A stretch of DNA of 64,000 nt from an uncultured Nitrospiraceae bacterium. Its GTDB lineage: Bacteria > Nitrospirota > Thermodesulfovibrionia > Thermodesulfovibrionales > SM23-35. The position numbers were made by a program. Positions 3,001 through 12,000 of this stretch are shown here, one piece after another. The stretch spans positions 1-64,000 of the forward strand of contig CAVSHB010000002.1 of assembly GCA_963727775.1 (NCBI GenBank), read 5' to 3'. How positions within the stretch are numbered: the stretch's first letter is position 1; every line of letters begins with the position of its first letter.

Positions 3001-6000
3001 TGCCTCGATTAGCGTCAAGTGAATACCGGGCATATGCTTCATCGTACATGCCACTCGAAAGAAGAATTGCCTCACAGGCCAGTGCAATTGCGCTCGAGGG
3101 CTCGTTGATTCCGTGGGAATCCTCTGCGTAACGGATCGCCTCTGCATTTCTGCCCATAGCGCTCAGAGCCTTCACACCCCACTTCCTGTAATACCAGTTC
3201 TTGTGCGGCAAAAGTTCGAGAAGGGAGAGGGTTTCCTCATTTCGCCCGGCCTTGACGAGGGCGCTCAGACAGGCGGTCGTACCTTTGAAATAACCATGAT
3301 GCCCAGAAGAAGGATTCCATGCCATCCGGACCACTTTTATAAATGAATCCGCCCATTGTGACGCGCGGTCAGCGGTTGCACAGAGTTCTCCCCAATATTC
3401 GGGCAACAGCTCGATATATGGGATATCGTCTGCCTCGACCGCCTGCCAGAGGCGCTCCAGCCACCTGTCTCGCACAGAACTATCTGCCGGAGCACCGGCT
3501 ATAATGGGCGCAAGTATCTCAATGGCATTGTTCACAGCCGATCCTATCGCACCCGATGAACTATCGACGTGGGCCAATGCAGGGGATAACCTTTCCAGAA
3601 ACAACACAGCGCCTTCAGCAGCCAGGACCGACTCTTTACGTACTGTTTTCTTTATCTCTGCCACAGCCTCTTTTACGCGTGCCAGGGCCGGCTGCGAGCG
3701 CCATCCGAAGGCATTCCGACGAAACCGCGCTACAAAATTCCATTTGTGAGTAGTTGATGAAGCCATTTTATTTCCATCTTTCGTATTTAAGTTGAAATGA
3801 AACACACATTCGATATATTGCCTTGTTTTATAAGGCTAATTGTGAGCAAGCTTTTGCAATACCGTATCAATAGAAGCTTTGCAGGCTTTTTTGCCCAGTA
3901 TTTATCCATCTTAAAGGAGTCTTGGGATGTTAGTCGTTCCCAAATCCTTAGTCCACGCGGTTTTACTAATTTCAGTGCTCATAACCATTCGAAATTAAAT
4001 ATTAATAATGACCTTAATAGATTCTTTTCAACTTTATTGCGAATGAATCTTTTATTTCTATTCTAACCAATTGACACCGTTGATGTCACACGGCATTCAT
4101 CCCCTCAAGCGAGCTGTAAAAGGGGACAGGCTGGTTTTTCAAAGTTCCCGCACGATTGCTTCAAGAATGCCCTTGCCGGGCTGCCATAAGTCCCTTCCTA
4201 AATCAAAGGATCATGGATGCACTAATTGCATTGGGCATGTATTTAGCGATACGAGGGTTTCTTAATGTAAAATAGATGCCATGGAATTTCCTGTTCCCAG
4301 AACATATCGGGATTTATTGTGTACATTGGATAAGGACGCCCTTTTATCCTTTATGAGGGGCTTTTTCAAGGGCGATCTTGCTACTGCCGACCTTTTTACA
4401 AACCGGATAAACGAAGATAACCTGATGAACAGCTTCTTAGACAAATTTTCCTCTGCCTCATATATCAAAGGCATTCCGGATCAGATATCAAAGGATGAAT
4501 TAAAGGCGTTAAGGGAGATTATCAGGAAAGGCGGTTTCCTGCGGCCTGGCGATAAACACTTCCCTGAAAAGAGCACAGTCGATGGCCTTGTAGAAAAAAA
4601 GCTTGCCTTCAGGAGCGATGGCGCTGACGGTCGCGGGGTTGCCGTGCCGCTCGAAATCTGCCTCGGGTTGCCATTTGATAAAAATGAGGAATACCGTTCA
4701 CTCATGAGGGCGATGAACCGATATTCCTCTGACATAATCAAGCTCATGGCGCCTCATCTGGGGATTCCCCAATACAACAAGCTGCATAAGATCAGGCTTG
4801 CCGCAGTCGTTTATAAAAGGATTATCGAAAACTACTCCCAGTATATCGGGTCGCTCACCGATCTGCAGAAAAAGATCATCAGGCATATATTCAGGCGCGG
4901 CGGCTTTGTTTCGAATGGAAACCTCGATGTATGGGCCAAGGCCAACGGTATGAAAGAATCCGGAGGCCAGAGGAGTTGGTACGGAGGGGATTACTTTCTT
5001 GATTATATGAGCACAGCGTACAGAAGAAAAAAAGAAGATTTGTCCGACCTTGAAAAGGCGTTGTTGCACCCTGTCTTGTCCGGGGTAGTCTGCGTCTCAT
5101 ACAGAGAGACTTATGATAGCATATGGCATTATTTCATCCCTGAAGAGGTATTCCCATTGCTGGCCGGGGACTTTTTCAGGGAGATGGATGAAAAGAGGGA
5201 AGTCGCAAGAAAAACAATGCGCGCTGCGGCCCCCGATGTTTTTGTCTCCTATTCCGGCAGAGTAGCAGAGGACCTTATCAAGGTCCAGATAGCTGCTGCA
5301 TGCGGTCTGGTCGGATTTGTGAAGAACAAGCCCGAATTTAAGAAACGTTCGATATCCGACATTGCCGGGCTGTTGAATTCTGCTGAATGTTACGTGGAAA
5401 ATCTGTTTAGGTTGTTAGGTTTTCACCCCAGCGGGATGAATATCATAAACTACAGTAGTTTTGATCTGCTCAAGTCATATCTATTCAAGTACGAATATGT
5501 CGTTTCTCTCCTTCCCATTTTGCAGCCTTTTCAGGGATGGGTGCATATGGATGGCCTCATTAAATATCTTCTCAATCATAGAGACCTCTACCGCTTTTCA
5601 GCATCACTTTCTGAAAACGTTATCGAGTCCGCGCTGAAAGACCTCGGCATGCTCGGCCTTTTGGATATTTCCCCTGACGGCAAGAGAGCGCAGGTCGCGC
5701 CCTTGTTGTCAAAGATGTTCGACTCTCCTCACTTCAAATCCATAGGGGTAATTAAAGGAGACTCCCGGCCGCTTATAGTGCAGCCGAACCTTGAGCTGCT
5801 GATACCTATGAATACGGAAATAAAGGCGCTCAAGAAGCTCTCCGAATTCTCCGACCTGATCGTGCTTGACAAGATGCTCCACTTTGCCTTGTCGAAAAAA
5901 AGTCTTATGCGAGGACTGGATCTGGGATGGGATATAAAAAAGGTTATCACCTTCCTTTCGTCGATTTCCTCAAAGGATGTCCCCAAGACCGTTGAAAATT

Positions 6001-9000: not shown

Positions 9001-12000
9001 CCGTCAATCGCGGCCTCATAAAACAGGCATTGATCAAGGCAGGCTATCCGGCGGTAGATATTGCCGGTTATTCTGAGGGTCTTCCCCTCGACATTTCCCT
9101 GAGAGAAAACGACTTATTCAAAATCAGACCATATCAAGTCATGGCGCGTGACGCATTTTACAAAGGCGGTTCTGCCCTTGGCGGCAACGGGGTAGTGGTC
9201 CTGCCGTGCGGGGCGGGAAAAACGGTCGTGGGCATAACTGTTATGGAGATGATCAAATCTCATTCACTGATACTCACCACCGGAATCACAGCGGTCAGAC
9301 AGTGGAAGAGGGAACTTGTCGATAAGACAGGCATAAGTCCTGAGGACATTGGTGAGTATAGCGGCGAGGTGAAAGAGATCCGCCCGGTGACTCTAACAAC
9401 ATACCAGATATTGACCCACAGGAAAAGCCGTGAGCATGATTTCACACATTTCCGTGCTGTAAATGATCATCCGTGGGGGTTATTGATCTATGACGAAGTA
9501 CACCTTCTGCCAGCCCAGGTTTTCCGGTTTACCGCTTCTTTGCAAGCGATAAGGAGGCTCGGCCTGACCGCAACCCTTGTAAGAGAGGACGGTAGAGAGG
9601 GCGATGTCTTCTCCCTGATCGGCCCGAAGTGCTATGATGTTCCCTGGAAAGTGATAGAGAAACAGGGATGGATCGCAGAGGCTGAATGTTTTGAAATAAG
9701 GGTAGGGATTACAGGAGACACAAGATTCCATTACGCATCCTCTGAAAAAAGACAGCGGTTTCGCATAGCGGCCGAGAATCCGGCGAAGACCCCGGTGATC
9801 CATAGGCTCATCTCAATGCATAAAGGCGACCGGGTATTGATAATAGGACAATATCTCGAACAGTTGCAGGGAATTGCGGAAAGTATTGGCGCACCGATAA
9901 TCACCGGGAAAACACCACAGGCCGAGCGTGAAGCCCTTTATCATCGGTTCAGGGAGGGCGACCTGTCCACGCTTGTGGTCTCCTCGGTCGCCAATTTCGC
10001 CATAGACCTGCCTGACGCGTCAGTCGCTGTCCAAGTATCGGGTAGATTCGGATCACGTCAGGAAGAGGCACAGAGACTCGGAAGGATATTGAGACCGAAA
10101 TCAGACGGAAGGGGAGCAAGGTTTTATACCCTTGTGTCGAGGGACACGGATGAACAGGAGTTCGCTCTGAAAAGACAGCTCTTCCTCACGGAACAAGGGT
10201 ACAGTTACACAATATTTTCCGAGGATGAAATCGGTTCTTATCTGAAGGCTGGCCTGGACGTGTAACTCACTGCCAGGCAACGGACCGGACTCTTGTTTTT
10301 GCCGTCTGCTCTCTGCGCTTTTTTTCAGCAGGGTGGGCATATTTCTCTTCACAAAAGAACTTGCCAGTGTAAAGTTCTCCGTTATGCAACCATACGTAAC
10401 CCTGGTATTCTATGATGATCGGCGTGATCAATGATGACTTTCTTGAGGATGGAGTCATTATCGGTATTTTGGAAATATATTTTATTTTCGCTATACCGCA
10501 ACAGCAGATTGAAGCTTAACCGAAACAAACACAGCCTGCCGTTGTTGAGCGGCTGAGTTCGATGAAAAGGAGTCCTGATTCCCAAAATGGGTGCCGCGTG
10601 TGCCCCTCTTTTCTTATACTTGTTCAGTTGATAATATCACTTGACAGAGGTTAGCATAATTGCTAACATTAAGAACATGAAATATACTATCGAGTATTTC
10701 CATGCGCGCGTCAAAGACGAGATCGAGAGCTGGCCCGATGGTATATTGGCTGATTATGCGCGGTTGGTGGAACTTTTGATGGAGTTCGGACCGACTCTGC
10801 GCATGCCGCATTCGCGTGCTATGGGCGACGGTCTTTTTGAACTGCGGCCACGCAGCCGTGAAGGTATCGGACGCGCTTTATACTGTTATATTGACGGTCA
10901 ACGCATTTTGATACTTCACGCTTTTGTAAAGAAAACGCAGGAAATTCCGGAGAAAGAATTACGCCTTGCCCGGATAAGAATGAAGGAGGTACGAAATGGC
11001 TGATTTAAAATACAAACCCGTTTCGCATGATCATGAGGCTTTCCTTAAAAAAGCCTTGAAACGGAAAGAGTTCAGTAAAGCGTACGAGGATATGGAAGAA
11101 GAGTACCGTCTTACCCGAGAGATGCTTGCCGCTCGTTCCAAGTTCGGTCTCACTCAGGAAGCCGTTGCAGAGTTGATGGGGACGACAAAAAGTGCGGTAT
11201 CGCGCTTAGAAGCTGCGGGCAAGCATGCTCCGTCTCTGACTACGCTCAAAAAGTACGCGCGCGCCGTCGGCTGTCGCTTGGAGATTAAGCTGGTTCCCAA
11301 CGCTCGCCTGACCAAGCGCTCAACACGGGCCGCCAAAAAGCAGGCGGCCGGTTAGCTTCGCGTTGCGTTTTCGGTTAAGCTTCAATCTGCAGGTGCGGTG
11401 GAGCGAAAAAAGGAAAGATATTTTCGGTATTGGTGCAATTGCAGATTGAAGTATGAAGGACAAAGTCGCTACGCGGCCTACATATATGGGTTTTCAACCG
11501 ACTCTTTTTCAAGGCGGTAACTACTCACCATGGTGGACTATCATCATAACTGTTAACGTGATAAAAACGTGATAAAACGAGGTATAAATAAGCATATCTA
11601 TAGATAACTACAGATATGGCAATGTTCCGTAAAAAACCTTCAGAAACATAGAGTTAGCGTGTGTTTTATAGTATTTTCAAGCACTTGCCGATCCCTCTAT
11701 TTCGATTCAGGAAACCTGTGCTCTATCCTACTGAGCTAAGGGGGCACGCGGGTTTGCAAAAAAAATTATACCATACCATGGCACTAAATCTTAATAGCTT
11801 GTCGCGTTTTTTGTTTTTTTTGTCATCTATGCGGAGACCAGTTTGAGGTGGAAGATATTATTTTGATTGGGATCTTGACTTAATGTCAGTTATCGCCTCT
11901 TCTGAGATTGTTCTTACATTACTGTCTTCATCATGTTTCAGTTCTTCGAGGAAGGGGACAGTTATTGCATCTCCAATTATGCCGAGCAGATAAGCTGCAT

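What a model noticed while it worked through the whole genome (the two positions that open the first line are those of the whole stretch)
4281..10265. Bacterial homologues of TFIIH subunit p52/Tfb2 encoded in an operon with an XPB helicase
An operon in a defence/mobile island encodes two large unannotated proteins (g01542, 658 aa; g01543, 614 aa), a 152-aa protein and an XPB/Ssl2-type helicase (g01545); the predicted fold of g01543 matches, over its whole length, only the p52/Tfb2 subunit of eukaryotic TFIIH, and its C-terminal domain is predicted to dock on the N-terminal domain of the neighbouring XPB as p52 does. I read g01543 (and its distant paralogue g01542) as bacterial p52 homologues that regulate XPB, i.e. 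the XPB-p52 'clutch' module of TFIIH exists in bacteria. TFIIH-like partners of XPB are thought to be lacking outside eukaryotes (archaea use Bax1), so this would give XPB-p52 a prokaryotic origin and a simple bacte [...]
Evidence so far: AlphaFold2 model of g01543 from a 31-row alignment: mean pLDDT 87.9, pTM 0.78. Foldseek vs PDB: ranks 1-19 are one chain each of TFIIH-containing entries (8ebs_D E 6.8e-8, 6nmi_D, ...) and the p52-p8 crystal 6trs_A/B, with 323-616 aligned columns, prob 1.0; that these cryo-EM chains are p52 is explicit for 6trs and recalled for 6nmi chain D; the next hits (8ebs_A, 6nmi_A, about 170 columns) are the XPB chains, via the shared DRD-like domain. Pfam sees only a weak Helicase_C_3 hit at 470-580 (E 8.5e-5, below cut) and a clear one in g01542 at 498-611; jackhmmer from g01542 reaches the g01543 family at E 1e-33. 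ESM Atlas: nearest clusters are hypothetical proteins, one with Pfam Tfb2 on 10% of [...]
(Added by a program. Inside this text positions count along the whole contig: contig position 1 is position 1 of the stretch shown here. "Call 12" and the like, gene names such as g00115 and contig names such as C1 are that model's own, and its searches are not shown. The text may have been shortened before it was handed on; [...] marks where a part breaks off. The agent that wrote the report below was given it as the finding of a first reader that could run no searches.)

Follow-up and report, generated by a model that had tools for sequence, protein, structure and literature searches.

The report
Bacterial XPB with two p52-like partners
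A bacterial defence island encodes the DNA motor XPB beside two relatives of p52, the protein that holds and tunes XPB in the human repair and transcription factor TFIIH, a partner that a 2012 study said had not been found in bacteria.

Summary
Genes confirmed. g01542 and g01543 belong to one superfamily with p52's domain order (winged helices, MD1, clutch, small C-terminal domain). g01543 aligns to human p52 130-400 (Z 13.3) and to p52's clutch-free N-half (Z 10.4); a profile of shorter relatives hits Tfb2/p52 sequences (E 0.001-0.005). Such a gene lies in 65 of 68 XPB loci; the 3 misses end under 800 bp after XPB. Correction: the cognate partner of this XPB is g01542, not g01543. The three closest XPBs carry only g01542 orthologues, g01542 has Q at p52's essential E310 position, and its clutch passes a complex prediction with XPB (0.64, best control 0.40; may reflect memory of TFIIH). 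g01543 is a mobile subfamily: XPB in 30 of 79 loci, on plasmids, sometimes in genomes without an XPB match. The C3 copy is an assembly overlap. Binding, activation, biological role and direction of transfer to eukaryotes are unshown. Nine library searches found no paper describing this; the scan noted the XPB-p52-like pair before on other DNA (52 findings, at least 45 genomes).

The parts
4281..6257 (+). g01542, 658 aa, p52/Tfb2-type protein and likely cognate partner of the XPB. Extra N-terminal winged-helix module (about 1-135), p52-like winged helices and MD1 (about 140-485), clutch (about 494-584; Q501, N503, D530), DRD/p8-like C-terminal domain (about 585-648).
   Evidence: Model pLDDT 85.6. 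Foldseek ranks 1-12 p52-sized TFIIH chains. VIA: 6trs_B Z 12.6 (rmsd 10.4, 212 aligned), 8ebt_A Z 13.8 (rmsd 4.8, 155), 6tru_B Z 8.0 (rmsd 15.1, 217). Orthologues at 55-57% in L009-L011. Complex with XPB 0.64 against best control 0.40.
6254..8098 (+). g01543, 614 aa, second p52-type protein of a mobile subfamily. MD1-like region about 150-450, clutch about 457-548, DRD/p8-like domain about 548-612.
   Evidence: VIA to human p52 8ebs_D Z 13.3, rmsd 6.5, 253 aligned, 153-548 to 130-400; to the p52 N-half 6tru_B Z 10.4, rmsd 3.8, 160 aligned. hhalign to the g01542 family 98.7%, 473 columns. XPB in 30 of 79 family loci; 16 plasmid records match.
8095..8553 (+). 152-aa orphan with a C-terminal cysteine cluster (possible zinc site, inferred); 40% GC; not p8-like.
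   Evidence: No hit in Pfam, PADLOC, NCBIfam or ESM Atlas; no relative in the 155 loci then held other than the genome's own; best E 0.07 against the partner and XPB profiles. Contigs of two other studies bridge it to XPB at about 92-94% identity.
8568..10265 (+). XPB/Ssl2-type helicase-translocase with the eukaryote-like N-terminal (clutch) domain; 565 aa from ATG 8568, or 571 aa from TTG 8550.
   Evidence: Pfam Helicase_C_3 15-142, ResIII, ERCC3_RAD25_C; NF045503 and TIGR00603 over their cut-offs; 79-81% identical to Nitrospirota XPBs.

Best explanation
This is a bacterial XPB-p52 module carried in a defence island of a Nitrospirota genome. g01542 is the p52 counterpart of this XPB. Its clutch pairs beta-sheet to beta-sheet with the homologous N-terminal domain of XPB and also touches a C-terminal helix of the second RecA lobe, as p52/p8 do in TFIIH (predicted). 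By analogy with TFIIH this switches on and limits the ATPase, making XPB a double-stranded-DNA translocase that opens DNA (inferred). The winged-helix array would tether the motor to DNA or to another factor in place of the p34/p44/p62 scaffold (inferred). g01543 is a true p52-type homologue of a separate, mobile subfamily that was added behind g01542, with the 152-aa gene, in a small clade; it may be a secondary or alternative partner. The likeliest job is opening damaged or foreign DNA in an accessory stress or defence function, not housekeeping excision repair or transcription.
For: Fold: g01543 150-450 matches p52 MD1 alone (Z 10.4, rmsd 3.8, 160 aligned; best unrelated Z 6.2); MD1+clutch Z 13.3; g01542 similar. 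Sequence: the profile of 37 shorter bacterial partners hits yeast, Chaetomium and human Tfb2/p52 at E 0.001-0.005, in two cases across the last winged helix and clutch; 11 of 37 members hit Pfam Tfb2, best E 1.4e-7, none over the cut. The three bacterial families align over nearly their whole length (hhalign 98.7, 100, 99.8%). Linkage: 65 of 68 XPB loci hold a partner, 59 within 40 nt by my start rule. In two phylum samples 9 of 9 and 16 of 17 genomes with an XPB-strength Helicase_C_3 hit have a second hit, while 140 of 151 and 101 of 121 genomes have none. XPB clades track partner subfamilies (6 changes, minimum 4, shuffled 24.8). The invariant Q maps to Tfb2 E342 = human E310, whose mutants are lethal in yeast (PMC9557730, passages). 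Complex 0.64 against best control 0.40, mark reached by 116 of 157 solved and 2 of 215 mismatched pairs; runs agree in at least 84% of contacts, partner pLDDT 81. The interface uses residues invariant in both families.
Against: Identity to p52 is 10-18% and whole-chain TM-scores are 0.12-0.26. Profiles of the g01542 and g01543 families themselves hit only XPB's N-terminal domain among PDB sequences (E 0.004-0.007), p52 at best E 1.3. A trimmed winged-helix+clutch profile hit no p52. VIA Z 10-13 overlaps the range the tool flags for helical proteins. The complex pass can come from memory of solved TFIIH, and one unrelated control scored 0.40. Most of the 68 loci come from one clade and are not independent. 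XPB/partner assignment rests on score, not on reading each gene. Relatives of g01543 occur without XPB (13 loci with at least 2.5 kb on both sides; 0 of 5 genomes or plasmids matched XPB), so the fold does not need XPB.
Confidence: 0.68

Rival explanations
1. Both p52-type proteins are working partners of this XPB, as the first reader proposed for g01543. They either compete for the XPB N-domain or pair through their C-terminal domains, the second protein standing in for p8.
For: g01543 overlaps g01542 by 4 nt in one apparent operon. g01543-family genes adjoin other XPBs in about 28 of 79 loci and on two cyanobacterial plasmids. The tandem seems to recur: L077 keeps the last codons of a g01542 orthologue just upstream, and three protein pairs share contig lengths of 2931, 4047 and 17556 (contigs not seen). 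A free 95-aa p8-like gene sits between XPB and partner in L073 (E 4.6e-9 to the C-terminal domain), whereas this genome shows no Tfb5 match.
Against: The three closest XPBs occur without g01543. L077 has no XPB in 4 kb downstream. g01543 has L at the E310 position (49 of 62 in its family). Other genes, including a restriction-type helicase and methylase, also land between g01542 and XPB (L009, L011), so this spot accepts passengers.
Confidence: 0.2
2. The proteins share only XPB's own NTD+DRD domain (Helicase_C_3) with p52. Bacteria and eukaryotes separately fused a copy of that domain to generic winged helices, so the proteins work like p52 but are not its homologues along their length.
For: The C-terminal 155 residues fit XPB NTD+DRD as well as or better than p52, and human p52 alignments stop at residue 400. 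Sequence hits to XPB are stronger than to p52. Winged helices are common (203 chains at Z 5 or more for g01542).
Against: The clutch-free p52 N-half scores Z 10.4 over 160 residues at 3.8 A, against 5.7 or less for other winged-helix proteins. The domain order is colinear from p52 residue 18 to 437. Pfam Tfb2 matches in some relatives extend upstream of the clutch (profile 161-356, 194-354, 231-355).
Confidence: 0.1
3. The module is a housekeeping repair or transcription-opening machine, a minimal TFIIH, and the island location is incidental.
For: XPB passes the 'DNA repair helicase XPB' equivalog. Some relatives carry WYL domains, which serve DNA-damage regulators (PMC6789036, passages). In several clades the pair is a stable two-gene unit.
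Against: Patchy distribution: 3 of 151 genomes in this phylum sample and 0 of 40 closest relatives with the g01543 profile. No Tfb5, Tfb4 or Ssl1 match in this 97%-complete genome (weak controls). Neighbours are RM-like, toxin-antitoxin and candidate defence genes; plasmid relatives lie beside Wadjet or Hachiman genes.
Confidence: 0.15

Closest known systems
XPB-p52(Tfb2/GTF2H4)-p8 sub-module of eukaryotic TFIIH
   Same: Domain order winged helices, MD1, clutch, small alpha/beta C-terminal domain (domain limits from PMC7708078, passages). The clutch is homologous to the XPB NTD and predicted to form the same pseudo-symmetric dimer, with a second contact to RecA2 (PMC6422496 and PMC9557730, passages). 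Q at the E310/E342 position in g01542.
   Different: 10-18% identity; two paralogues; an extra N-terminal module in g01542; the C-terminal domain sits as in XPB NTD+DRD; no p8, p34 or p44 match in the genome; patchy and mobile; binding and activation unshown.
Bacterial 'helicase-associated domain' (Pfam Helicase_C_3, PF13625) proteins, including Helicase_C_3+WYL
   Same: Both proteins belong here: same C-terminal module; database relatives are named 'helicase-associated domain-containing protein'. The Helicase C3+WYL class is noted in PMC6789036 (passages). A 'Tfb2_Cas3Cterminus_WYL' label and a 'Tfb2' legend entry appear in PMC10910872 (figure legend, supplement rows).
   Different: Neither protein here has a WYL domain. 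The passages I saw do not link these proteins to XPB or describe a p52-like role.
Archaeal XPB-Bax1
   Same: An XPB with a dedicated partner that modulates its ATPase (PMC13024598, passages).
   Different: Bax1 is a nuclease binding the thumb and HD2 regions; most archaeal XPBs lack this N-terminal domain (PMC3353954, passages). No Bax1 chain appeared in the listed fold hits.
PbeA helicase (PADLOC)
   Same: The XPB here has partial PbeA matches (best E 5e-21).
   Different: The matches cover helicase-core stretches only; the partners hit no PADLOC model.

Membership tests
p52/Tfb2 (GTF2H4) | Clutch/HubA domain homologous to the XPB N-terminal domain | tested here: met
   Helicase_C_3 hits; VIA alignments through p52 residue 400 or 437.
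p52/Tfb2 (GTF2H4) | MD1 tandem winged-helix region directly before the clutch | tested here: met
   g01543 150-450 to 6tru_B 122-319, Z 10.4, rmsd 3.8, 160 aligned; g01542 306-584 to 6trs_B 125-437, Z 12.6, rmsd 10.4, 212 aligned. Predicted models only.
p52/Tfb2 (GTF2H4) | N-terminal winged-helix domain (residues about 1-120) | tested here: inconclusive
   g01542 177-482 aligns to 6tru_B 18-319 at Z 8.0 but rmsd 15.1; g01543 1-148 was barely tested.
p52/Tfb2 (GTF2H4) | C-terminal domain that dimerises with p8/Tfb5 | tested here: inconclusive
   The domain is present; weak matches to Tfb5 (7o4i_5 Z 4.0; 6trs_D E 0.91); it fits XPB DRD better. No Tfb5 match in the genome.
p52/Tfb2 (GTF2H4) | Pfam Tfb2 (PF03849) above the curated cut-off | tested here: not met
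   No hit for either protein. The best relative scores 31.2 bits against a cut of 34.5; 0 of 62 g01543-family members hit.
p52/Tfb2 (GTF2H4) | Acidic interface residue E310 (yeast E342, Chaetomium E359) | tested here: inconclusive
   The position maps to Q in g01542 (25 of 25 in its family) and L in g01543 (49 of 62). The mapping assumes an ungapped 76-residue match.
p52/Tfb2 (GTF2H4) | Binds the XPB N-terminal domain | tested here: inconclusive
   Prediction only: g01542 0.64 against best control 0.40, possibly from memory of TFIIH. g01543 was not run.
p52/Tfb2 (GTF2H4) | Stimulates and caps XPB ATPase/translocase activity | not testable with these tools
   Needs biochemistry.
TFIIH core complex | p34, p44, p8, p62 and XPD assembled with XPB-p52 | tested here: inconclusive
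   No Tfb5, Tfb4 or Ssl1 match in the genome, but no true positive was among the controls; p62 and XPD were not searched. I do not file this as TFIIH.
Bacterial XPB (NF045503) | Score over the curated cut-off, with N-terminal Helicase_C_3 and ERCC3_RAD25_C | tested here: met
   825 bits against 610; Pfam domains.

The most novel reading that the evidence does not exclude
Eukaryotic p52 and p8 descend from a bacterial mobile XPB-activator module, so the promoter-opening and lesion-opening lobe of TFIIH was taken over ready-made from bacteria. This locus would show a three-protein form in which a second, freely mobile p52-type protein fills the p8 position or redirects the motor in defence.
Probability: 0.3. 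Interest if true: 0.9.

Novelty: new variant of a known kind. Interest (0 to 1): 0.72.

Why it matters
[quoted passage not shown] If the neighbouring gene is the missing activator, earlier assays lacked a subunit, and a two-protein system becomes available to study how p52 controls XPB. It also gives a large, mislabelled family ('helicase-associated domain') a function and makes the origin of TFIIH's XPB lobe testable. The local lesson is that p52-type genes form XPB-bound and free, mobile subfamilies.

Tried and rejected
Recent duplication on C3: rejected, it is a dovetail overlap of contig ends. g01543 as sole or cognate partner: not favoured. The 152-aa gene as p8: no support. g01542 alone against PDB sequences: nothing relevant. 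Trimmed profile A5: no p52 hit. Viral contigs with the g01542 profile: 16 pattern matches, none confirmed (one pattern, weak test). Promoter and terminator scan: consensus matches only, not used. No RNA holder listed. No contig joined g01542 directly to XPB, but coverage was fragmentary. ESM Atlas on g01542 136-490: unnamed bacterial clusters and Pfam TP_0021_N, no Tfb2 family listed. No Bax1 chain among the listed fold hits. Paper searches gave no report of a bacterial p52-XPB pair; most subscription papers and bioRxiv supplements are outside the library. Scan look-ups by sequence, place and two word sets returned nothing. One search printed wrong lengths for the three loci without partner; the right values (785, 726, 517 bp after XPB) come. 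The XPB tree is the quick version; loci under 540 aa, L001-L008 and about three in four of the largest clade were left out. The g01543 tree is FastTree on 69 rows without fragments or duplicates.
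Full report
What is there. Four genes lie on the + strand: g01542 (4281-6257, 658 aa), g01543 (6254-8098, 614 aa), a 152-aa ORF (8095-8553) and XPB (to 10265). The first three overlap by 4 nt. XPB probably starts at ATG 8568, where its orthologues start. It passes the NCBIfam XPB and rad25 cut-offs and carries the N-terminal Helicase_C_3 domain. The copy on C3 is not a duplicate: the end of C3 overlaps the start of C2 (11,437 bp, 99.25%), as the end of C1 overlaps the start of C3. Upstream on C3 lie an RM-like methyltransferase fusion, PADLOC candidates PDC-S01 and PDC-S52 and an Xre/RES antitoxin; downstream a Gp49/HTH pair, then cysS, tRNAs and ribosomal genes (core gene names recognised from sequence). 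The host is a Nitrospirota: two same-phylum genomes are the named records L009 and L010. The module is rare there: 3 of 151 phylum genomes, own included, and 0 of 40 close relatives with the g01543 profile.

Are they p52 homologues? A model of g01543 (pLDDT 92.9) returns p52-sized TFIIH chains at Foldseek ranks 1-8, with low TM-scores of 0.15-0.26; one search names 8ebt_D, 6trs_A and 7o4i_2 as p52/Tfb2. The key test is whether the likeness goes beyond the clutch, which p52 shares with XPB's own N-domain (PMC6422496, passages). It does. Against 48,161 chains, residues 150-450 align to the crystal of p52's N-half, which lacks the clutch, at Z 10.4, rmsd 3.8, 160 residues; this is the MD1 domain (121-319 in PMC7708078, passages). 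The best unrelated chain scores 6.2. Human p52 130-400 aligns to 153-548 at Z 13.3, rmsd 6.5, 253 residues. The last 155 residues fit XPB NTD+DRD equally well (Z 12.0-13.6). g01542 (pLDDT 85.6) behaves alike: Foldseek ranks 1-12 are p52-sized chains; VIA gives 6trs_B Z 12.6 and a loose colinear match to p52 18-319 (Z 8.0, rmsd 15.1). The g01542 family, the g01543 family and a family of about 500-570-aa partners align over nearly their whole length; g01542 has an extra N-terminal module. By sequence, only the short-partner profile reaches p52 (E 0.001-0.005). The families of the two window proteins reach only XPB's N-domain, a trimmed profile missed p52, and no member passes the Pfam Tfb2 cut-off. 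I put whole-length homology at about 0.85.

Is the pairing with XPB general? Of 68 genome loci fetched with this XPB, 65 hold a non-helicase clutch gene, 59 of them within 40 nt by my start rule; the three others end 517-785 bp after XPB. Most loci belong to one clade, so they are not independent. In samples from the phyla of G151 (Cohnella) and G152 (an Aminicenantes genome), 9 of 9 and 16 of 17 genomes with an XPB-strength hit (E under 1e-25; assigned by score) have a second hit, 7 and 12 of them within 8.3 kb; 140 of 151 and 101 of 121 genomes have no hit, and 2 and 3 have only weaker hits (each sample includes its seed genome). XPB clades track partner subfamily: 6 label changes against a minimum of 4 and a shuffled mean of 24.8 (quick tree; kin share labels).

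Which gene is the partner here? The window's XPB groups at 99 with L009, L010 and L011. Each of these holds a g01542 orthologue (55-57%) and no g01543; in L010 it ends 32 nt before XPB, and in L009 and L011 other genes intervene, among them a restriction-type helicase and methylase. None of the 68 loci has a g01543-family gene. The g01543 family is looser. XPB occurs in 30 of 79 metagenome loci (the best 80 of 440 were kept), is absent from 13 with at least 2.5 kb on both sides, and 36 are too short to tell. Sixteen plasmid records match; of six viewed, two are coupled to XPB and four are not, two of these beside Hachiman or Wadjet genes. Genome G420 has two family members and no XPB match. 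The invariant Q of the partner clutch maps to yeast Tfb2 E342, human E310, whose mutants are lethal in yeast (PMC9557730, passages); the Chaetomium E359K change cuts XPB activation to 5%. g01542 has Q (25 of 25 in its family), g01543 has L (49 of 62). The L-bearing family does adjoin XPB elsewhere, so L does not exclude binding. The tandem seems to recur in a small clade: L077 keeps a remnant of a g01542 orthologue upstream, and three g01542-type/g01543-type protein pairs share contig lengths (inferred, contigs not seen).

Complex prediction. XPB 7-565 with g01542 488-650 scored 0.64 against a best control of 0.40 (others 0.00); the mark was reached by 116 of 157 solved and 2 of 215 mismatched pairs, roughly applicable here. 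Runs agree in at least 84% of contacts; partner pLDDT is 81. Contacts join the two beta-sheets (XPB 16-28, 47-52; partner 499-507, 528-532) and XPB helix 536-555, the two interfaces described for p52/p8. Many of these residues are invariant in both families. Because TFIIH is solved, this shows likeness, not binding.

How it likely works. Shown: genes, fold likeness in models, genomic linkage. Predicted: the clutch-to-NTD dimer with a RecA2 contact. Inferred from TFIIH: activation and speed-limiting of XPB's ATPase and dsDNA translocation (PMC7708078, passages). Inferred from context: an accessory role in opening damaged or foreign DNA, since the module is patchy, mobile and among defence genes, and no p8, p34 or p44 match was found (weak controls). 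Some relatives add a WYL domain, and one operon has a free 95-aa gene matching the C-terminal domain, which looks like p8.

What is known. [quoted passage not shown] PMC13024598 (passages) gives no bacterial partner. Pieces have been labelled: Helicase C3+WYL proteins (PMC6789036, passages) and a 'Tfb2_Cas3Cterminus_WYL' locus name (PMC10910872, legend and supplement rows). PMC6222260 (passages) had nothing on p52. Nine searches found no paper linking such proteins to XPB; subscription journals and bioRxiv supplements are largely outside reach. The scan itself has 52 earlier findings of the pair in at least 45 genomes, one marked as partly fallen; I used them as leads only.

Verdict. A real, widespread bacterial counterpart of the XPB-p52 module; it works like p52 by all tests available here but fails the formal Pfam test and is not TFIIH. 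Interest 0.72.

Noticed in passing
L073:11653-11940: A 95-aa gene between XPB and its partner matches the partner C-terminal/DRD domain (E 4.6e-9): a candidate bacterial p8/Tfb5.
   Followed up: partly
window 8095-8553: 152-aa orphan with a C-terminal cysteine cluster and low GC (40%); conserved next to XPB in contigs from two other studies.
   Followed up: partly
L009:2843-10004 and L011:3229-5600: The gap between the g01542 orthologue and XPB holds different passengers (type III restriction-like helicase and methylase, pRiA4b ORF-3 protein, unknown ORFs): a possible insertion hotspot.
   Followed up: partly
L106:2897-7120, L085:3388-5814, L151:2-2728: Some g01543-family genes sit beside a SNF2-type ATPase gene (Pfam-confirmed for L106; the other two cluster with it) instead of XPB.
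   Followed up: no
L177:6587-15611 and L174:6764-13373: Plasmid g01543-family genes lie just upstream of a Wadjet operon (Cupriavidus) or beside Hachiman genes (Polaromonas).
   Followed up: no
L095, L181, L118:7206-11410: Two p52-type genes occur together in other loci too; in L118 the second has a SWIM zinc finger.
   Followed up: no
L102, L110, L141, L144, L146: A recurring operon: DUF6880 gene, a 409-aa unknown gene, a g01543-family gene, XPB.
   Followed up: no
L068, L072, L089: XPB or partner reading frames are split, by frameshift or assembly error.
   Followed up: no
L160:4039-18131 (C3, upstream of the window): Defence-type island: 986-aa methyltransferase fusion, HTH-metallopeptidase pair, Xre/RES antitoxin, PDC-S01 and PDC-S52 candidates, and a second ssb-like gene (recognised from sequence).
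   Followed up: partly
L160:1005-1571: A secreted-looking 188-aa protein extremely rich in Met, Lys and Gly repeats, next to msrB/msrA-like genes (recognised from sequence); possibly a metal-binding or oxidant-scavenging protein.
   Followed up: no
window 2525-3805 (-): A 426-aa helical protein of unknown function, divergent from the operon; no family hit.
   Followed up: no
P0128, P0130-P0132, P0134, P0136, P0137, P0139, P0140, P0144: Many g01542-family members have a C-terminal extension of about 70 residues, possibly WYL-like, that g01542 lacks.
   Followed up: no
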